The position numbers and the translations under genes are program-made. From the UHGV virus genome UHGV-2023338: a stretch of DNA of 40,736 bases; one strand, written 5' to 3'. The first letter of the stretch is position 1. Each line of letters opens with the position of its first letter. The stretch comes from a virus. Under the pieces are notes generated by a model. It was given only the letters and a program-made list of their open reading frames with translations. It was not told where the DNA came from and did no database searches. Below, one piece after another: positions 6,060 through 36,533 of this stretch.

Positions 6060-6074
6060 TTACCTTTCAGGTGA
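6060..6074. promoter_or_regulatory. Operator-like palindrome TTACCTTTCAGGTGA (14/15 match to TTACC-N5-GGTAA)
   Basis: Read directly from sequence; about 40 bp upstream of LexA box. Confidence 0.35.
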
Positions 6075-6111
6075 TTCGCAAAACGTGCTGGATAGCAAAC
6101 AAATTATTTGC

Positions 6112-6130
6112 TACTGTATATTTATACAGT
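6112..6130 (+). promoter_or_regulatory. LexA (SOS) box
   Basis: TACTGTATATTTATACAGT = CTGT-N8-ACAG with AT-rich spacer, near-identical to E. coli LexA consensus TACTGTATATATATACAGTA; 21 bp upstream of ATG at 6151; -35-like TTGCTA at 6108-6113. Confidence 0.7.
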
Positions 6131-6150
6131 TATTGCTTGGAGAAGATAAG

Positions 6151-6408
6151 ATGCAGCAGTATCACTATCCACTGGAAGACGGATTTACCGAAAGGATTCA
6201 CACGCCGGGAGGCGTCAGGTCACTGGTGGAGGGATCGCACTTGATGAAATTACTCCGGGCTCTCGATAAGGATGGATTTAATGTCGATGGCCCACTTGCC
6301 GAACTGACTGCACTGATTAACTACGTCACCAGCTCACAGATGTCTATGCAGGATCTGCAAACACATCTCGACTATTGTGCCGAACAATTACGAAAACAAA
6401 TCAGGTAA
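6151..6408 (+). CDS. Hypothetical 85-aa protein, SOS-box-associated moron (candidate antirepressor)
   Basis: Internal Met of track ORF 6043-6408 preceded by GGAG RBS; only plus-strand gene inside minus-strand virion operon; function inferred from context only. Confidence 0.45.
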   Translation: MQQYHYPLEDGFTERIHTPGGVRSLVEGSHLMKLLRALDKDGFNVDGPLAELTALINYVTSSQMSMQDLQTHLDYCAEQLRKQIR

Positions 6409-22670: not shown

Positions 22671-22685
22671 TTACCTTTAAGGTAA
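22671..22685. promoter_or_regulatory. Operator-like palindrome TTACCTTTAAGGTAA
   Basis: Perfect TTACC-N5-GGTAA; TTGACA hexamer at 22649-22654 lies 17 bp upstream. Confidence 0.5.
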
Positions 22686-23008: not shown

Positions 23009-23085
23009 GTGGCATTAGCTCAGTTGGACAGAGCAACCGCCTTCTAAGCGGTTGGTCGCAGGTTCGAATCCTGCATGCCACGCCA
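23009..23085 (+). tRNA. tRNA-Arg (anticodon UCU), phage-encoded
   Basis: Cloverleaf folded by hand: acceptor GTGGCAT/ATGCCAC, D-arm GCTC/GAGC, anticodon stem ACCGC/GCGGT with loop CUUCUAA, T-arm GCAGG-TTCGAAT-CCTGC, encoded CCA. Confidence 0.9.
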
Positions 23086-23200: not shown

Positions 23201-23216
23201 CTGTAAACCAGTACAG
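23201..23216. promoter_or_regulatory. LexA-box-like motif CTGTAAACCAGTACAG (weaker)
   Basis: CTGT-N8-ACAG spacing correct but spacer not AT-rich; 68 bp upstream of gene at 23284. Confidence 0.3.
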
Positions 23217-23248
23217 CCACGGAAGGCATAACTCATTGCTTCCAGTTT

Positions 23249-23272
23249 GCCCGGTTCGCCGGGCATTTTTTT
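23249..23272 (+). terminator. Intrinsic terminator/attenuator 12 bp upstream of start codon
   Basis: GCCCGG-TTCG-CCGGGC followed by ATTTTTTT; lies between LexA-like box and RBS of gene at 23284. Confidence 0.55.
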
Positions 23273-23283
23273 AAGGTGAGATT

Positions 23284-23661
23284 ATGAACGACCAGCAAAT
23301 CGAAAAAGAAATCATTGAGAAAGGCAAAACGGCACCGCGAATCACCCCGCAGCACATCGAAGACGTGATTATTAGTGAGCACTATTTCACGGCTGCAGAA
23401 GGGGTTCATGGCGCTAATGAGCTTTTAAAACCGCATGAAAGCCCAATTGACTATTACCAGGAAGCGCACCCTGCTGAGTCACTTCTGACCTTCTGCGTTC
23501 TGGTGCTGCGCAACGGATTTACTGTAACCGGAGAAAGCGCCTGTGCAAGCCATGAAAACTTTGATGCAGAAATTGGTCGGAAGATTGCCCGGCAGAATGC
23601 TGTAAACAAAATCTGGATGCTCGAAGGTTACTTGCTGAAGCAGAAGCTAAGCGAGCAATAA
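23284..23661 (+). CDS. Phage N4 Gp49 / Sf6 gp66-family protein (function unknown)
   Basis: 125 aa; C-terminal pattern VLRNGFTVTGESACASHENFDAEIGRKIA...KIWMLEGYLL matches my recollection of this family; AGGTGAG RBS. Confidence 0.5.
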   Translation: MNDQQIEKEIIEKGKTAPRITPQHIEDVIISEHYFTAAEGVHGANELLKPHESPIDYYQEAHPAESLLTFCVLVLRNGFTVTGESACASHENFDAEIGRKIARQNAVNKIWMLEGYLLKQKLSEQ

Positions 23662-26038: not shown

Positions 26039-26631
26039 TGATTACCATCCTGACGTTCTTTGAGTCGCTTCCTGGCTGCTGCTATGCGATCAGCAATTGT
26101 CACATTCACATTAACATCCAGGCGTTCTTTGAATGCGTTGACGTCGACGTGCTTACCAATCAGTTCTAGGTTCTTCACCTTGTCAGGCCATTTAATTTTT
26201 TTGAGGATTGTCTCTATCGAGTCCTCGTTCATGTTCATGATGGTCGATGACAGATCAAAGCCGCTAAGCGTAGTGCGCCATATTTTCGGCCACTCGCGGA
26301 TTGGCTTAAGACTCCCATCGTCGTTGAGGATATCAATCACGTCCATCTGGTCGATCTCCACCAGGCGCATGAGAACGTAATCAGCACTGACGCGCATTCG
26401 TTTGTTGCGCTCCTCCATCAACTCGGCAATCCGTTTTTTAATGCGTTCATCACGCATCATGACACTGGCTTTAACTGCCGCTGTATTTGGGGAGAATCCT
26501 GCGTTAATCGCTGCCTGAGTCTGGTTTTCAGGCGTTTTGATGTATGACTGGCAATAAGCCTCCTGCATTGCTGTTAGTGGCTTAAATTGCGTTGATTTGC
26601 GTTTATAGGTTTTAGGTTCAGCAGACATCAT
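26035..26631 (-). CDS. terS: Terminase small subunit
   Basis: Start trimmed to Met downstream of hairpin terminator (track ORF N-terminal extension is Thr/Val/Ile junk); HTH-like FSPNTAA region; directly upstream of terL. Confidence 0.7.
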   Translation of the reverse strand: MMSAEPKTYKRKSTQFKPLTAMQEAYCQSYIKTPENQTQAAINAGFSPNTAAVKASVMMRDERIKKRIAELMEERNKRMRVSADYVLMRLVEIDQMDVIDILNDDGSLKPIREWPKIWRTTLSGFDLSSTIMNMNEDSIETILKKIKWPDKVKNLELIGKHVDVNAFKERLDVNVNVTIADRIAAARKRLKERQDGNQ

Positions 26632-26638
26632 AACCACC

Positions 26639-26667
26639 GTGGTAATAGTTACCGTTGTGGTAATAGT
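26639..26667. repeat. Direct repeat GTGGTAATAGT x2 (18-bp period) containing operator-like TTACCGTTGTGGTAA (26649-26663)
   Basis: Directly read; lies across terS start region, between late-region terminator and terS coding sequence. Confidence 0.6.
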
Positions 26668-26673
26668 ACCATG

Positions 26674-26700
26674 CAAAATAAAGCCGCCATAGTTGGCGGC
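26674..26700 (-). terminator. Intrinsic terminator upstream of terS (minus strand), tR-prime-like
   Basis: GCCGCCA-tagt-TGGCGGC hairpin followed on minus strand by TTTATTTTG. Confidence 0.5.
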
Positions 26701-26740
26701 AGTATTCAAAACCCATCAAATTCATCATGCATAATCTAAT

Positions 26741-26754
26741 CGTGACATGTCACA
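26741..26754. repeat. Palindrome CGTGACATGTCACA (copy 3 of 3)
   Basis: Directly read; overlaps stop codon of gene 26750-27091. Confidence 0.8.
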
Positions 26755-27091
26755 CTATTAATTTCGTTTCATGCCAGCCTTTAGTCACCCAGCATTGCAA
26801 GTCACCATTACACGGACATGAATTAACTGGAACTCTCTCGCCGCACTTACCGCAACATTTTCTGCTGATCGATTTTATACGCCCGCGCACGCGTGCATCA
26901 TCCTGGCGGATCAGTAACGCTATATACTCACCAAATTCGTAAGGCGCACGCCCGGGGCGACGCGTGGCACAGTTACGCTCCAGCATTTCAATTTCCTGAG
27001 CATCAAGCACAATTTCCAGCTTACGCACACCAGATGCAGCTTGTCTGGCTCTCTGAGCGGCTTTGCGCTCTGCTGCTGATTTAGCCATCAA
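26750..27091 (-). CDS. Putative DNA-binding protein with C-terminal Cys-rich zinc ribbon; candidate late-gene regulator
   Basis: 113 aa; basic N-terminus, C-terminal CCGKCG...CPCNG...C cluster; occupies the Q-like position immediately upstream of late terminator and terS. Confidence 0.4.
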   Translation of the reverse strand: MMAKSAAERKAAQRARQAASGVRKLEIVLDAQEIEMLERNCATRRPGRAPYEFGEYIALLIRQDDARVRGRIKSISRKCCGKCGERVPVNSCPCNGDLQCWVTKGWHETKLIV

Positions 27092-30044: not shown

Positions 30045-30602
30045 TTACTCACCTTCCTGTTCTTCCAGAAAAATACGCATAGCCTCAAGCATCTCTTCGG
30101 TGTCATACGGAGACAGCTTGTCACGCAGGATGTGTTCAATGCTGTTAATGAACTTTCGGATTGCTTTGCGTTCAATTTCAGTCAGGAAAGCATCGGTGGC
30201 TGGGGTGTCTGATTGCAGAGACTTTGCGCGATAGTCATTCCACCCTCTTGCATACATGGGATTAACTCGCACTCCATCTTTTACGCAATATGCCTGACCT
30301 CCACGGTTGATAACCTTGATTTCGTCCATAGCGCCAGACTTCAGCCCCGCATTCTCCGCCGCCAGCGCTGAAAACTTCTCGTGTGCCAACTTAACAGCCG
30401 AATCAGCCTGCTTAATTGACTCAATCGCTTTCTGCTGGTCTTCGGCCAGCGCATTAGCACGCACCAGTTGCACTTCCAGTTGCGTTGCCAAATCGCTGAT
30501 CAGCTTTGCCACACTACGCATATCAACGGCACCACATTCTGCTTTCAGTTCCGAAGCCATCTCATGCCCGGCGGAAACTAACCATTTGATATTACTTTCC
30601 AT
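30045..30602 (-). CDS. Hypothetical protein
   Basis: 185-aa ORF, helical/coiled-coil composition. Confidence 0.5.
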   Translation of the reverse strand: MESNIKWLVSAGHEMASELKAECGAVDMRSVAKLISDLATQLEVQLVRANALAEDQQKAIESIKQADSAVKLAHEKFSALAAENAGLKSGAMDEIKVINRGGQAYCVKDGVRVNPMYARGWNDYRAKSLQSDTPATDAFLTEIERKAIRKFINSIEHILRDKLSPYDTEEMLEAMRIFLEEQEGE

Positions 30603-30663
30603 CTTTACCCTCGCTTATCCACATAACTTATTGATTACATTGATAACTAAAAAGATCGTCGAT

Positions 30664-31011
30664 TCAGAACTCTTCGATGTTCCAGCCGCCACCTGCTTTC
30701 TTTGGTTTAACCGTTACCCCGATGATTCGGAACGGATACTGATCTGCGGCTACTTTGGTTTTCACCCTGGCGTCGTCGGTCCAGAATCCCCCTTTCACTT
30801 CGTGCAGTTCCATCTCTCCGGTGGCGAGCATCACAGCGAAATCGGGCGTATAGAACGTGTTGTCAGCTAACCGCAGCTTGATACCCTCGAATCGATACCA
30901 GGCGATTTCCCCTGCACGTTTACGCTGCTCAAGGTGCTGGCAATACGCAGATTCTGTTTTGTTCATCTGGCCTGTTTTGAGTCGACCAAGAGCCTGTATC
31001 TGTTTTCTCAT
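30664..31011 (-). CDS. DUF1064-like protein (small nuclease-fold candidate)
   Basis: 115 aa; pattern KTESAYCQHLEQRKRAGEI...YTPDFAV...ELHEVKG resembles DUF1064 family by recollection. Confidence 0.45.
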   Translation of the reverse strand: MRKQIQALGRLKTGQMNKTESAYCQHLEQRKRAGEIAWYRFEGIKLRLADNTFYTPDFAVMLATGEMELHEVKGGFWTDDARVKTKVAADQYPFRIIGVTVKPKKAGGGWNIEEF

Positions 31012-31014
31012 GAT

Positions 31015-31091
31015 TTACCTCTAAGGTAATTAAAAACCACATAAGACACGAAATCAATAGAGTTTAGAATATTTTGTTACCTCATAGGTAA
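31015..31091. promoter_or_regulatory. Pair of operator palindromes (TTACCTCTAAGGTAA 31015-31029; TTACCTCATAGGTAA 31077-31091) in P-to-nin intergenic region
   Basis: Both perfect TTACC-N5-GGTAA, 62 bp apart centre-to-centre. Confidence 0.55.
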
Positions 31092-31100
31092 TTGTTGAGG

Positions 31101-31123
31101 CGTAAAAAAATGCGCTATCGCGC
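31101..31123 (-). terminator. Weak candidate terminator after P gene (minus strand), tR2-like position
   Basis: GCGC-gata-GCGC short hairpin followed on minus strand by TTTTTTTAC; 4-bp stem only. Confidence 0.3.
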
Positions 31124-31128
31124 TGGTA

Positions 31129-31929
31129 TTACTTGATAAATCCTGCCGCCTTTCCCCGCCTGTATTCCTCCATCAGCCACTGCGCCGGTGTTATTCCCCC
31201 AAGGGTGGCGGCGTTAGGCATGCACCCGAAACTTCGCCCTGGTGGATGGTAAACGTCTCTCCCTGTGTCCGGAGGTGTACTCATGGGCTCTGGCTTTGCC
31301 TGTATGCTGATCACCGGATCGGGTATCTGCTGTCCGGAAGCCACCTTTTTCGCCCAATCATCGAGCAGCCTGCGCGCGTGTTTCTCAACCTCAATCTCGC
31401 TAAGCTGGCGCTGATACATTGCACGGCGGGTATCACATACGACCCAGTACATAACCGGATGCCGCCACGGGAATCTTTCGGGACCACCAGGATATAAACT
31501 TTTTTCCTTGCTGTACCGGTGAAACTCCGCCATCACATCGTCAATGGTGACGCCAAGAACCATCTTGCTGTCTTTGCACCACTTGATGAATTGCCCTGGC
31601 GACGGCCAGAACGGAGATTCACTGGCGCGGGCGTGGCGCATACCAGCAGAAACCTGTTCACGGGTTCGGATCCCACCTTCGGCAAACGCAGCAATCCACT
31701 GCTGTTTTGCAGCGACTTCCTGCTCTGGCGTCTTCAGGTTGGTTACCACTGCCGCCGGAAACAGTTGTTTCAGCTGTTTGAAAAGGGCATCAACAAGCCT
31801 CTCTGCTGACATGTTCACCACGTTGTCATTGTTGGTGTACTGATGCTCATAACCTGACATGCGAGAAAGGGCTTCTCCGTCACGGTTTTGTATCGCGGTA
31901 AAAACGTTGTTCACAAGAAATCCTCCCAT
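31129..31929 (-). CDS. P: Replication protein P-like helicase loader
   Basis: 266 aa; block SAGMRHARASESPFWPSPGQFIKWC closely parallels lambda P (NAGMRVARRQNRPFLPSPGQFVAWC). Confidence 0.85.
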   Translation of the reverse strand: MGGFLVNNVFTAIQNRDGEALSRMSGYEHQYTNNDNVVNMSAERLVDALFKQLKQLFPAAVVTNLKTPEQEVAAKQQWIAAFAEGGIRTREQVSAGMRHARASESPFWPSPGQFIKWCKDSKMVLGVTIDDVMAEFHRYSKEKSLYPGGPERFPWRHPVMYWVVCDTRRAMYQRQLSEIEVEKHARRLLDDWAKKVASGQQIPDPVISIQAKPEPMSTPPDTGRDVYHPPGRSFGCMPNAATLGGITPAQWLMEEYRRGKAAGFIK

Positions 31930-32942: not shown

Positions 32943-33023
32943 GGTAAGCCCTGCTATTAGTATTGGGATTACGGTCATTTTGTGCTGACACAAAAAAAAG
33001 ATCAACCAGATTTGGTTTTTTAT

Positions 33024-33038
33024 TACCTTTGAGGTACG
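33024..33038. promoter_or_regulatory. Operator-like site TTACCTTTGAGGTAC (14/15)
   Basis: Directly read; just downstream of Cro-region terminator. Confidence 0.35.
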
Positions 33039-33323: not shown

Positions 33324-33477
33324 AGCTATTGCCTGATATTTATTTCAGATAATAAATATTCACCCATAAGGTAACAAAAATCAAGGATAGTTACCTATGG
33401 GGTGCATTTACCTGTTGGGTAATATTGCTTTAAATTGAATCATCTACTGATTCATATATGAGGCGATTTTCCAGAAA
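33324..33477. promoter_or_regulatory. Immunity-region divergent promoter/operator region
   Basis: 154-bp AT-rich spacer between divergent regulators; perfect operator TTACCTGTTGGGTAA (33408-33422) plus two imperfect sites (33360-33374, 33391-33405). Confidence 0.6.
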
Positions 33478-34062
33478 ATGAAAAGTATCCAGGACGTCCG
33501 CAGGCAAAATCTCAACGACTTGATCGACCGTGAATTCAATGGTGTTCAGACGCGGATGGCAGAAAAACTTGGAACTCAGGCAAATCTGGTAAACCGCTGG
33601 GCTCTTGGCAAGAAGGTTATCGGCGACCAGGTTGCGCGAAAAATTGAAGCTGCCGCCAATAAACCACGTAACTGGCTTGATATCGATCGCTCGCTTTCTC
33701 AGGAAGGTTTTCAGCCTGTCGGCCCGAGCGATATAGGTCAGCTGGCGGCTCACAACCTGGAACGCTGGATGAGCGAAAGCCGCGACCTTTCAACACAGGG
33801 AAAACTTCACCGCGCATCCGGCGTCGCCCAGGTGACAATCAGCCGCCTGTTAAACAATGAAGTCAGCGTTTCCATTTCCACCCTGGAGAATGTTGCATCC
33901 GCATTCGGGCGTCACGGCTATGAATTACTGATTCACCCGCACGACCCTGCGACTATCAACTATGATCGCTCGCGCTACGCATTGTTACCTGAAACAGAGA
34001 AGGCAAAGATCGAAAGTTACATTGAATTTGTCATCAACCAGAACGAAAAAAGCAAACAATAA
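33478..34062 (+). CDS. CI-like prophage repressor candidate (two HTH regions, no evident autopeptidase domain)
   Basis: 194 aa; XRE-type HTH MAEKLGTQANLVNRWALGKK and second HTH-like ASGVAQVTISRLLNNEV; no Ala-Gly/Ser...Lys S24-type motifs seen; followed by terminator. Confidence 0.55.
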   Translation: MKSIQDVRRQNLNDLIDREFNGVQTRMAEKLGTQANLVNRWALGKKVIGDQVARKIEAAANKPRNWLDIDRSLSQEGFQPVGPSDIGQLAAHNLERWMSESRDLSTQGKLHRASGVAQVTISRLLNNEVSVSISTLENVASAFGRHGYELLIHPHDPATINYDRSRYALLPETEKAKIESYIEFVINQNEKSKQ

Positions 34063-34108: not shown

Positions 34109-34119
34109 TGCCTATGCGA

Positions 34120-34196
34120 TTACCTTATGGGTAATTTTTTTAACTCATATCTATTGACATCAAACCAGATACGCATAATTATTACCTCAACGGTAA
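34120..34196 (+). promoter_or_regulatory. PL-like promoter flanked by two operator palindromes
   Basis: TTACCTTATGGGTAA (34120-34134), TTGACA (34154-34159), -10-like TAATTA, TTACCTCAACGGTAA (34182-34196). Confidence 0.5.
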
Positions 34197-35715: not shown

Positions 35716-36533
35716 AACCGGGAATTTATTTCGACATCAGCAACGAAGACTACCACGCCGGTGACGGCGTGAGTAAGTCGCAACTGGACATGGTTGCCAA
35801 GAATCCGGCGCTTCTTAAATGGGTTCAGGCAGCACCAGAAGACGAAGAGAAAAAGTCTGCACTGGATATGGGAACCGCATTGCACTGTCTGCTTCTGGAG
35901 CCTGGAGAGTTCGACAAACGCTTCATTGTTTCACAGAAATTCGATCGTCGGACGAAACAAGGTAAAGCTGACGAAGAGGAATTTCTTCGTGATGTGGCGG
36001 ATATGGGGATTACGGTACTTGATGCCGAGCAGTGGCGGAAACTGGAGCTGATGCGTGATAGCGCAATGGCTCACCCGGCGGCACGCTGGATGCTGGAAGC
36101 ACCTGGTTACTGCGAAGCATCAATGTACTGGAACGATGAAGAGACGGGGGAGTTGTGCCGAATTCGTCCAGACAAATGGCTGAACGAGCACAACGTGATC
36201 GTCGACGTGAAAAAGGTTGCAGATATGGACCGTTTTGCACGCCACATCGAGGAATTCCGCTACCACGTGCAGGACGCAATGTACCGCGAAGGCGCAATGA
36301 GGGTTACTGGTCAGCCGCATGGTTTTTTCTTTCTTGCCGTGAGCGAAAGCATTGATTGTGGTCGGTATCCGGTACGCGTGTTCGAGCTGGATGCGCAGGA
36401 TGTCGATGCCGGGCACGCTCTGTTCCGCCGGGATCTGAATACCTATCACGAATGCCGCATCAATGATGAATGGGGCGGTGTGGAAATCATTAAACGCCCT
36501 GAGTGGGCACGCAAACAGGATATGTACATATGA
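35712..36533 (+). CDS. PD-(D/E)XK-family exonuclease (exonuclease VIII/RecE C-terminal-like)
   Basis: 273 aa; candidate active-site block VIVDVKKV; translationally coupled (ATGA) to downstream annealing-protein gene. Confidence 0.6.
   Translation: MKPGIYFDISNEDYHAGDGVSKSQLDMVAKNPALLKWVQAAPEDEEKKSALDMGTALHCLLLEPGEFDKRFIVSQKFDRRTKQGKADEEEFLRDVADMGITVLDAEQWRKLELMRDSAMAHPAARWMLEAPGYCEASMYWNDEETGELCRIRPDKWLNEHNVIVDVKKVADMDRFARHIEEFRYHVQDAMYREGAMRVTGQPHGFFFLAVSESIDCGRYPVRVFELDAQDVDAGHALFRRDLNTYHECRINDEWGGVEIIKRPEWARKQDMYI

What the first reader, a model, noticed from the sequence alone, without database searches (positions are those of the whole stretch)
31012..31128. Operator-flanked internal promoter region between replication genes and nin-like block
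Seen: after the P stop there is a weak terminator-like hairpin and then two perfect TTACC-N5-GGTAA palindromes within 117 bp of intergenic DNA. Inference: the accessory block downstream (DUF1064 to ASCH) may be separately repressed or activated rather than simply co-transcribed with O and P.
Basis: partly seen in the sequence, partly recalled or inferred. Interest (0 to 1): 0.4.

Follow-up and report, generated by a model that had tools for sequence, protein, structure and literature searches.

The report
Third repressor-controlled promoter in phiV10-like prophage
The two palindromes are extra copies of this phiV10/epsilon15-type prophage's own immunity-repressor operators, laid out around a promoter-like sequence exactly as at its main leftward promoter, so the downstream accessory genes probably form a separately repressed unit; this is ordinary for the family and partly annotated already in phage epsilon15.

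Summary
On the minus (coding) strand, the P stop codon is followed by a GCGC-GATA-GCGC hairpin plus T7. Then come two perfect palindromes, TTACCT-N3-AGGTAA, at 31091-31077 and 31029-31015.

The motif occurs 7 times in the window against 0 in shuffles. The other copies sit at the immunity region: OL/pL, and OR beside a homologue of the SPC32H Rep repressor (PDB 5D50, E 3.5e-42).

The 117-bp spacer has the same layout as pL: operator, 19 nt, TTGAnn, 17 nt, an A/T-rich -10 whose last T begins the second operator. The operator centres lie near -62 and +1.

This cassette is kept in all BLAST-found relatives from Escherichia, Salmonella, Enterobacter and Klebsiella, whichever genes flank it. It is present in 529 of 5,426 complete E. 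coli genomes.

The epsilon15 RefSeq record already annotates the homologous distal site as a repressor-binding site.

Best reading: a third early promoter controlled by Rep and derepressed by the antirepressor Ant. It would drive the resolvase, accessory genes and late-regulator block. The operator identity is strongly supported. The promoter is inferred: its -10 lacks A at -11 and no transcription start site data exist.

Novelty is low: a new member of a known kind. One side observation is unexplained: the distal operator cores are hypervariable.

The parts
31104..31123 (-). Terminator-like element: GCGC-GATA-GCGC, A, then T7, directly after the P stop codon.
   Evidence: Sequence. GCGC-N4-GCGC-R-T7-AC is conserved in 9/9 BLAST-found relatives. 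phiV10 annotates it as a putative terminator. The scan does not call it because the stem has only 4 bp. Fold energy is -8.4 kcal/mol.
31077..31091 (-). Distal operator (Od), TTACCTATGAGGTAA, centred about -62 from the predicted start.
   Evidence: It is the positional homologue of the epsilon15 'protein_bind: repressor' feature 35906-35922. Its half-sites are perfect in all 77 loci with coverage, out of 80 retrieved by Rep protein alone.
31052..31057 (-). -35-like hexamer TTGATT, 19 nt downstream of Od.
   Evidence: By eye. TTGAnn at this exact offset in 9/9 relatives and 102 of 103 standard cassettes. pL has TTGACA at the same offset.
31029..31034 (-). -10-like hexamer TTTAAT (17-nt spacer). 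Its last T is the first base of the proximal operator.
   Evidence: It matches 5 of 6 consensus positions but has T at -11, so the scan does not call it. Relatives have TTAAAT or ATAAAT, which read as TAAATT with an 18-nt spacer. A Scandinavium prophage has TAAATT at 17 nt.
31015..31029 (-). Proximal operator (Op), TTACCTTAGAGGTAA. It covers the predicted +1 (about 31022) and contains the Shine-Dalgarno GAGG (31021-31018) of the DUF1064 gene.
   Evidence: Perfect in 9/9 relatives and in 74/77 loci retrieved by Rep alone.
30664..31011 (-). First gene of the downstream unit: DUF1064 protein (PHROG 'Holliday junction resolvase').
   Evidence: Pfam PF06356. phrog_190, E 1.2e-43. Some relatives carry a RuvC-like resolvase behind the same cassette instead.
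26750..27091 (-). Last gene of the unit: 113-aa 'transcriptional regulator' (epsilon15 gp49 / phiV10 p55 type). A strong terminator follows at 26700-26683.
   Evidence: phrog_536, E 5e-54. Terminator. A gene of the same size and position precedes terS in all annotated relatives.
33478..34062 (+). Immunity repressor Rep, the presumed binder of the palindromes.
   Evidence: Full-length match to the SPC32H repressor, PDB 5D50_A, E 3.5e-42.
34120..34196 (+). pL cassette with the same layout: Od 34120-34134, TTGACA 34154-34159, AATTAT 34177-34182, Op 34182-34196.
   Evidence: The scan calls this promoter with 10 of 12 matches.
33360..33422 (.). OR region between rep and the cro-like gene. Three operator-type sites: 33360-33374 (2 mismatches), 33391-33405 (degenerate), 33408-33422 (perfect).
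   Evidence: PR-like TTGTTA-17-TATTAT on the minus strand.
6114..6408 (+). Antirepressor gene ant (about 6152-6408) with a consensus LexA box, CTGTATATTTATACAG, at 6114-6129. This is the likely route of derepression.
   Evidence: Match to PDB 5D50_E anti-repressor, E 2.1e-45. LexA box.

Best explanation
The 117-bp spacer is a third early promoter-operator cassette ('P3') of a phiV10/epsilon15/SPC32H-type (Uetakevirus) prophage.

**Repressed state (lysogen).** The Rep repressor binds the two 15-bp palindromes. One is centred at about +1 and overlaps the -10, the start site and the ribosome-binding site. The other is centred at about -62. The 62-bp spacing is close to six helical turns, which puts both sites on one face of the DNA. 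A Rep tetramer carries two pairs of DNA-binding domains, so it can probably hold both sites and clamp the promoter between them, as at pL.

**Upstream hairpin.** The short hairpin plus T7 partly insulates the unit from PR transcription.

**Induction.** After DNA damage LexA is cleaved and the antirepressor Ant is made. Ant takes Rep tetramers apart, and pL, PR and P3 open together.

**What P3 transcribes.** A resolvase gene, a variable set of nin-like accessory genes, and finally a conserved small regulator that sits just before the late (terminase) genes.

**Shown here:** the motif identity with OL/OR, the Rep and Ant homology, the shared layout with pL, and conservation.

**Inferred:** Rep binding at these sites, looping, promoter activity, the start site, and partial termination.
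For: 1. The motif is non-random and is shared with the immunity operators.
2. Rep and Ant are full-length homologues of the crystallised SPC32H pair. A consensus LexA box precedes ant.
3. The epsilon15 RefSeq record annotates sites of the same motif as repressor-binding sites, including the homologue of the distal palindrome.
4. The layout Od-19-TTGAnn-17-(-10 overlapping Op) is identical at P3 and pL. Sequence identity outside the functional elements is only about 46%, so the layout itself is maintained.
5. The cassette is present with both operators perfect in 9/9 BLAST-found relatives from four genera. It is also present in 40 of 43 unique cassettes found through the terminator-like motif alone and in 74-77 of 77 loci found through Rep protein alone.
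6. The cassette joins three upstream gene families to two downstream families in all combinations.
7. A compact variant has the operators 18 bp apart and still forms a promoter-like TTGCAA-17-AATTAT, with one operator in the spacer and one at +1.
8. Half-sites have zero entropy while adjacent bases are the most variable in 4 kb. That pattern indicates selection on the half-sites.
9. The SPC32H Rep tetramer has two domain pairs about 100 A apart, and its C-terminal fold has been likened to DNA-looping tetramerisation domains (PMC9986798; PMC9638917).
Against: - The -10 of the E. coli-type cassette (TTTAAT) has T at the critical -11 position, and the consensus scan reports no minus-strand promoter in 30400-31700.
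- The hairpin has a 4-bp stem and fails the terminator scan. PR read-through may therefore be the main source of transcripts.
- Operator-type pairs also occur just before terS without a promoter between them, so operators need not imply a promoter.
- No heteroimmune relative was found. Co-variation of operator sequence with repressor specificity could therefore not be tested.
- No transcription start site, footprint or reporter data could be found. The key papers (Kim & Ryu 2013; Kim et al. 2016; Kropinski et al. 2007) are not in the held library.
Confidence: 0.68

Rival explanations
1. The palindromes are true Rep operators, but there is no functional promoter between them. They act as a roadblock to read-through from PR in the lysogen, or as auxiliary sites that help long-range Rep assemblies with OR/OL. 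The downstream genes are simply co-transcribed with the replication genes.
For: - T at -11 in the -10, and no promoter called.
- Very weak hairpin.
- Adjacent operator pairs before terS lie downstream of a terminator with no promoter between them.
- The sites lie 2.3 kb from OR, a distance comparable to lambda OL-OR (own knowledge).
Against: - TTGAnn is fixed 19 nt from Od and 17 nt from an A/T-rich hexamer in 102 of 103 standard cassettes.
- The layout is identical to pL, which the scan does call.
- The compact and Scandinavium variants re-create better -10 elements (AATTAT, TAAATT) at the right spacing.
- A/T tract at the UP-element position.
Confidence: 0.17
2. The sites are bound mainly by another phage regulator, not by Rep. 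Candidates are the 76-aa Cro-like protein (turn-down of early transcription) or the 113-aa late regulator.
For: - In lambdoid phages Cro shares operators with CI (own knowledge).
- The Cro-like protein shows weak helix-turn-helix similarity to the Rep N-terminus.
Against: - The motif brackets rep on both sides in the OL/OR positions.
- epsilon15's curators assign it to the repressor.
- Binding by Cro in addition to Rep would not contradict the main explanation.
Confidence: 0.08
3. The palindromes work at RNA level. They form hairpins, or a long-range helix between the two copies, that hide the ribosome-binding site of the DUF1064 gene in read-through transcripts.
For: - The proximal palindrome contains the Shine-Dalgarno sequence.
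- The minimum-energy fold of the whole spacer pairs the two palindromes.
Against: - Single hairpins are only -4 kcal/mol, with z-scores of -0.9 to -1.6. The whole region has z -1.97.
- No Rfam family reaches threshold.
- Stems never vary while loops vary freely, and the two cores show no complementarity across relatives.
- The same motif occurs in divergent-promoter DNA at OR.
Confidence: 0.04

Closest known systems
Repressor-binding site annotated at 35906-35922 of Salmonella phage epsilon15 (NC_004775.2), between the replication gene and the resolvase gene
   Same: - Same motif (ATTACC-N5-GGTAAT).
- Same position after a GCGC-N4-GCGC-T7 hairpin.
- Same 62-bp partner site overlapping the next gene's ribosome-binding site.
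- Same -35 offset.
   Different: - Only the distal site is annotated in epsilon15, and no promoter is annotated.
- The flanking genes differ: DnaT-like and RuvC-like there, P and DUF1064 here.
- Nucleotide identity is about 74% over 115 bp.
pL/OL cassette of the same prophage (window 34120-34196)
   Same: Operator, 19 nt, TTGAnn, 17 nt, -10 overlapping the second operator. Centres are 62 bp apart, and a terminator sits just upstream.
   Different: - pL has consensus TTGACA and a -10 with A at -11 (AATTAT), plus a 31-nt leader.
- P3 has TTGATT/TTTAAT and an approximately 11-nt leader.
- There is little sequence identity outside the functional elements.
SPC32H Rep-Ant antirepression switch (PDB 5D50/5D4Z; Kim & Ryu 2013, Kim et al. 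2016, known to me only from abstracts and from citing papers)
   Same: Rep and Ant homologues (E 3.5e-42 and 2.1e-45), and a LexA box at ant. SPC32H carries the same cassette.
   Different: I could not check which operators were tested experimentally in SPC32H. The papers are not held.
Lambda PR - nin - Q arrangement
   Same: Same gene order: cro-like, replication genes, nin-like accessory genes including a resolvase, a small regulator, then late genes behind a promoter-like sequence plus terminator.
   Different: Lambda has no repressor-controlled promoter after P. Its nin/Q region is reached from PR by N antitermination (own knowledge). Here a second operator-flanked promoter appears to do that job.
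Repressors with extra operators outside the main switch: coliphage 186 CI at pB, P1 C1 regulon, N15 CB (own knowledge)
   Same: One immunity repressor directly controls additional transcription units, including one that leads to late-gene activation.
   Different: The proteins and motifs are unrelated. These parallels are recalled from memory and were not tested here.
Promoter clamping by a tetrameric repressor bound to two operators on the same helical face (gal, lac, deo; Rco of pLS20 with 75-bp spacing, PMC9986798)
   Same: Two operators bracket a promoter at an integral number of helical turns, and the repressor is tetrameric.
   Different: Looping by Rep has not been shown. A 62-bp loop would be unusually tight.

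Membership tests
Rep operator of epsilon15/phiV10/SPC32H-type phages | 15-17-bp palindrome (A)TTACC-N5-GGTAA(T) | tested here: met
   Both sites are perfect. The motif is the same as the epsilon15 sites annotated as repressor-binding.
Rep operator of epsilon15/phiV10/SPC32H-type phages | Same motif present at the immunity region flanking the repressor gene of the same element | tested here: met
   Sites at 34120 and 34182 (OL/pL) and at 33408, 33391 and 33360 (OR).
Rep operator of epsilon15/phiV10/SPC32H-type phages | Cognate repressor of the SPC32H Rep family encoded in cis | tested here: met
   PDB 5D50_A, E 3.5e-42, residues 1-190 of 194.
Rep operator of epsilon15/phiV10/SPC32H-type phages | Positional homology with an annotated repressor-binding site | tested here: met
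   BLAST aligns the spacer alone to epsilon15 35875-35989. The annotated feature 35906-35922 aligns with the distal palindrome.
Rep operator of epsilon15/phiV10/SPC32H-type phages | Physical binding by Rep | not testable with these tools
   Needs a gel-shift or footprint experiment. The primary papers are not held.
Sigma-70 promoter | -35 and -10 hexamers 16-18 bp apart, with A at -11 and T at -7 | tested here: inconclusive
   TTGATT-17-TTTAAT matches 9 of 12 positions but has T at -11, and the scan does not call it. The elements are conserved in position. Relatives give TAAATT or AATTAT with A at -11.
Sigma-70 promoter | Mapped transcription start or reporter activity | not testable with these tools
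   No data found in the literature searches.
Intrinsic (rho-independent) terminator | G+C-rich stem of at least 5 bp followed by a U tract | tested here: not met
   The stem is 4 bp (GCGC/GCGC) and the scan finds none. The T7 tract is present. The element is conserved in 9/9 relatives. A weak or leaky terminator is still possible.
SPC32H-type Rep/Ant/LexA antirepression switch | Rep homologue, small Ant homologue, LexA box at the ant promoter | tested here: met
Cis-regulatory RNA element (hairpin hiding the ribosome-binding site, or an Rfam family) | Match to a curated family, stability beyond shuffles, or compensatory changes in stems | tested here: not met
   The only Rfam match is below threshold and biologically implausible: plant snoR12, 25.7 bits against a cut-off of 39. 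Hairpin z-scores are -0.9 to -1.6. Stems are invariant and no compensatory changes are seen.

The most novel reading that the evidence does not exclude
The operator-promoter-operator cassette is a portable unit, used twice (pL and P3), that one Rep tetramer clamps through a 62-bp micro-loop. The uncontacted core (Y-NNN-R) and outer flank of the distal operator are either under diversifying selection or are mutational hot spots created by the bound, bent repressor-DNA complex. If so, otherwise near-identical prophages would differ in how tightly, and in what order, pL and P3 are released on induction.

The evidence does not exclude this. These 15 positions are 4-8 times more variable than 4-fold degenerate sites in the neighbouring genes, while the half-sites never change.
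Probability: 0.15. Interest if true: 0.6.

Novelty: new member of a known kind. Interest (0 to 1): 0.3.

Why it matters
- **Prevalence.** About one in ten complete E. coli genomes carries this cassette.
- **Control of the block.** If P3 is real, this phage family keeps its recombination, accessory and late-regulator block silent by direct repressor control. Lambda instead relies on antitermination from PR.
- **Induction.** A single antirepressor would then open three early units at once.
- **Recombination junction.** The cassette joins replication modules to accessory modules in every combination. This helps explain how cargo genes are swapped in these prophages.
- **Practical use.** It gives a compact, naturally duplicated Rep-controlled promoter design.

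None of this changes current concepts.

Tried and rejected
- **Consensus scans.** The promoter/terminator scan of the region finds neither element on the coding strand. I kept this as evidence against the promoter rather than discarding it.
- **RNA-structure reading.** Folds are weak and there is no Rfam family. The snoR12 hit is chance. No covariation is seen.
- **Co-variation with repressor specificity.** All relatives found carry the same half-sites, including ZX5, TL-2011b and 80 loci retrieved by Rep protein. The test was therefore impossible.
- **Literature.** The epsilon15 genome paper and both SPC32H papers are not held. The ZX5 paper predicts four promoters but gives no positions or operators.
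- **Location of ant.** My first guess was 23284-23661, which was wrong: its only hit is a weak one to Acb4. Ant is at about 6152-6408.
- **Flank/core complementarity.** I looked by eye for complementarity between the hypervariable flank and core and found none.

Full report
**What is there**

The early-right genes of this window lie on the minus strand. The finding covers the spacer between a lambda-P-type replication gene (31929..31129; Pfam Phage_lambda_P, E 1.5e-56) and a DUF1064 gene (31011..30664).

Read on the minus strand, the spacer contains these elements in order:
- the TAA stop of P;
- GCGC-GATA-GCGC-A-T7 (31123-31104);
- ten bases;
- TTACCTATGAGGTAA (31091-31077);
- 19 bases;
- TTGATT (31057-31052);
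- 17 bases;
- TTTAAT (31034-31029), whose last T begins TTACCTTAGAGGTAA (31029-31015);
- ATC, then ATG.

It is not chance. TTACC-N5-GGTAA occurs 7 times in the window and never in 100 shuffles. The relaxed 6+6 form gives 16 matches against 0.85 expected.

**What the window is**

BLAST identifies a phiV10/epsilon15-type (Uetakevirus) E. coli prophage, 97-98% identical to phiv142-3, PAS61 and phiV10.

The 194-aa protein at 33478-34062 (+) is a full-length homologue of the crystallised SPC32H repressor Rep (5D50_A, E 3.5e-42). A gene at about 6152-6408 (+) is a homologue of its antirepressor Ant (5D50_E, E 2.1e-45). It is preceded by a consensus LexA box at 6114-6129. The window therefore carries the complete SPC32H-type Rep/Ant/LexA switch.

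**The palindromes are the immunity operators**

The other perfect copies of the motif are placed as follows:
- two just downstream of rep (34120 and 34182, the OL/pL position);
- one perfect site (33408) plus two degenerate ones between rep and the divergent cro-like gene (the OR position);
- one upstream of terS (26649);
- one upstream of the portal operon (22671).

The epsilon15 RefSeq record annotates sites of the same motif as 'protein_bind: repressor'. These lie at OL, before terS, before gp3 and before the tail-fibre region. One lies at 35906-35922, between the replication gene and the next gene. That last site aligns with the distal palindrome of this finding. The proximal partner is present in epsilon15 but is not annotated.

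**Same layout as pL**

pL reads TTACCTTATGGGTAA, 19 nt, TTGACA, 17 nt, AATTAT, whose last T begins TTACCTCAACGGTAA. The consensus scan calls this promoter with 10 of 12 matches.

The finding has the same spacings throughout. Outside the operators and hexamers, however, only about 46% of bases agree. The resemblance is one of design, not of recent duplication.

With the start site placed 7 nt after the -10, the proximal operator is centred on +1 and the distal one on -62, at both promoters. Sixty-two base pairs is close to six helical turns.

**Conservation**

- A distant BLAST with P, the spacer and DUF1064 showed that the spacer alone is retained where the flanking genes are different. In SPC32H/SPN1S the upstream gene differs, in Tyrion the downstream gene differs, and in epsilon15 and PAT1 both differ.
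- In nine relatives from Escherichia, Salmonella, Enterobacter and Klebsiella, both palindromes are perfect and 62 bp apart. The hairpin-T7, TTGAnn and the A/T-rich -10 sit at identical offsets.
- To avoid circularity I anchored a scan of IMG/VR on the hairpin-T7 motif only. Forty of 43 unique cassettes from loci found only this way have both operators perfect and in register.
- In 80 loci retrieved by Rep protein alone, the P3 distal operator is perfect in 77 of 77 and the proximal in 74 of 77.
- The cassette links three families of upstream gene to two families of downstream gene (DUF1064 and RuvC-like, both resolvase-type by PHROG annotation) in all combinations.
- It occurs in 529 of 5,426 complete E. 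coli genomes.
- It occurs in prophages of Citrobacter, Klebsiella, Pseudescherichia, Scandinavium, Superficieibacter and Candidatus Erwinia dacicola.

**Variants that bear on the promoter question**

- In a compact variant (L076, L132, L137, L180) the two operators are 18 bp apart. The sequence reads TTGCAA, a 17-nt spacer containing the distal operator, then AATTAT overlapping the proximal operator, then ATG. This is a different architecture that still makes a promoter-like element with two operators.
- In a Scandinavium prophage the spacing is one base shorter, which places TAAATT, with A at -11, at 17 nt.
- Most non-E. coli cassettes read TAAATT with an 18-nt spacer.

These variants argue that promoter function, not merely operator presence, is maintained at this junction.

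**Weak points**

- The E. coli-type -10 (TTTAAT) lacks the critical A at -11, and the scan reports no promoter on the coding strand. This version may be weak, or helped by the A/T tract at the UP-element position.
- The hairpin has only four base pairs and fails the terminator scan. Read-through from PR is likely, and P3 may supplement rather than replace it.
- Operator pairs before terS lie behind a strong terminator with no promoter between them. Operators alone therefore do not prove a promoter.
- No heteroimmune relative was found that would allow a co-variation test.
- I found no experimental start-site or binding data. The three key papers are not in the held library.

**RNA alternatives**

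- Each palindrome folds to only about -4 kcal/mol, no better than shuffles.
- The whole-spacer fold pairs the two copies, which is an automatic consequence of two identical palindromes. Its z-score is -1.97.
- Rfam gives only a sub-threshold plant snoRNA match.
- Across relatives the stems never change while the cores vary freely and without complementarity. This is the signature of a protein-binding palindrome.

**Mechanism proposed**

In the lysogen Rep occupies both operators. The proximal one blocks the -10, the start site and the ribosome-binding site. Citing papers describe the SPC32H Rep as DNA-binding only as a tetramer, with its DNA-binding pairs contributed by different dimers. Two domain pairs lie about 100 A apart, and the C-terminal fold is likened to looping tetramerisation domains. 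A single tetramer bridging the -62 and +1 sites is therefore plausible, but it is inferred.

On DNA damage LexA is cleaved, Ant is made and takes the tetramers apart (abstract-level knowledge of Kim et al. 2016). pL, PR and P3 would then be released together.

The minus strand between 31011 and 26750 has no convincing terminator until the strong one at 26700-26683. The unit would therefore run from the resolvase gene through variable accessory genes (Eae-like, DUF551, ASCH) to the conserved 113-aa regulator (phrog_536). That regulator sits directly before a promoter-like sequence, a terminator and the terminase genes. This layout recalls lambda Q-PR'-tR'.

**Novelty**

The operator motif and one of the two sites are already annotated in epsilon15. 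The repressor family is structurally characterised, and repressors with extra operators are well known. New here, as far as I could check, are three points: the twin-operator design shared with pL, its conservation as a module junction, and the compact variant. I rate it a new member of a known kind, with modest interest.

**Side observation, unexplained**

Among near-identical E. coli-type prophages, the most variable positions in 4 kb of early region fall into two groups. One is the central bases of the distal operators of P3 and pL. The other is the 9-10 bases on their promoter-distal side.

| Positions | Mean column entropy (bits) |
|---|---|
| P3 distal operator core | 1.19 (29 different pentamers in 70 loci) |
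| pL distal operator core and the two outer flanks | 0.6-0.9 |
| 4-fold degenerate sites of rep, P and DUF1064 | 0.155-0.19 |
| Operator half-sites | 0.0 |

Possible causes are a deeper genealogy at a recombination junction, diversifying selection on repressor affinity, or a mutational hot spot at repressor-bound DNA. None was tested.

Noticed in passing
window 31082-31086 and 31092-31100; 34111-34119 and 34125-34129: The cores and outer flanks of the distal operators of P3 and pL are the most variable positions in 4 kb of early region among near-identical prophages. Their entropy is 0.6-1.2 bits, against 0.155-0.19 at 4-fold degenerate sites and 0.0 at the half-sites. The cause is unknown.
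   Followed up: partly
L076 6353-6425, L132 195-265, L137 (minus strand), L180: Compact variant of the cassette. The two operators are 18 bp apart, with TTGCAA-17-AATTAT wrapped around them, directly before a RuvC-like gene.
   Followed up: partly
window 26631-26663 and 26683-26700 (minus strand): A strong terminator after the 113-aa regulator gene is followed by two adjacent operator-type sites: TTACCACAACGGTAA, and TTACCACGGTGGTTA with 1 mismatch. They abut the terS start codon. epsilon15 annotates a repressor site at the same place.
   Followed up: partly
window 26724-26753 (minus strand): A perfect 12-bp palindrome, GTGACATGTCAC, overlaps the stop codon of the regulator gene and a promoter-like GTGACA-18-CATGAT just upstream of the terminator. 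The layout recalls lambda Q-PR'-tR', so the regulator may be a late antiterminator or activator.
   Followed up: no
window 6060-6408: Antirepressor gene (homologue of 5D50_E) with a consensus LexA box at 6114-6129 and an operator-type site with 1 mismatch at 6060-6074 upstream. Rep may also act at the ant promoter.
   Followed up: partly
window 23201-23661: A plus-strand 125-aa ORF lies among minus-strand late genes. It has a weak match to anti-CBASS protein Acb4 (E 0.007) and is preceded by a LexA-box-like CTGTAAACCAGTACAG at 23201-23216. It may be a damage-induced anti-defence gene.
   Followed up: no
window 23009-23085: Phage-borne tRNA-Arg (anticodon UCU) on the plus strand.
   Followed up: no
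window 33023-33037: An operator-type site with one mismatch (GTACCTCAAAGGTAA on the minus strand) lies just after the terminator that follows the cro-like gene. It is conserved in phiV10 and Tyrion.
   Followed up: no
window 22671-22685: A perfect operator, TTACCTTTAAGGTAA, lies about 90 bp upstream of the gp3/portal operon. It matches the epsilon15 annotated repressor site at 2931-2947, so Rep may touch late operons directly.
   Followed up: no
L187 (Mesorhizobium caraganae assembly, 422-bp contig, coverage 0.84): This contig carries an E. coli-type copy of the cassette. It is almost certainly contamination of that assembly.
   Followed up: no
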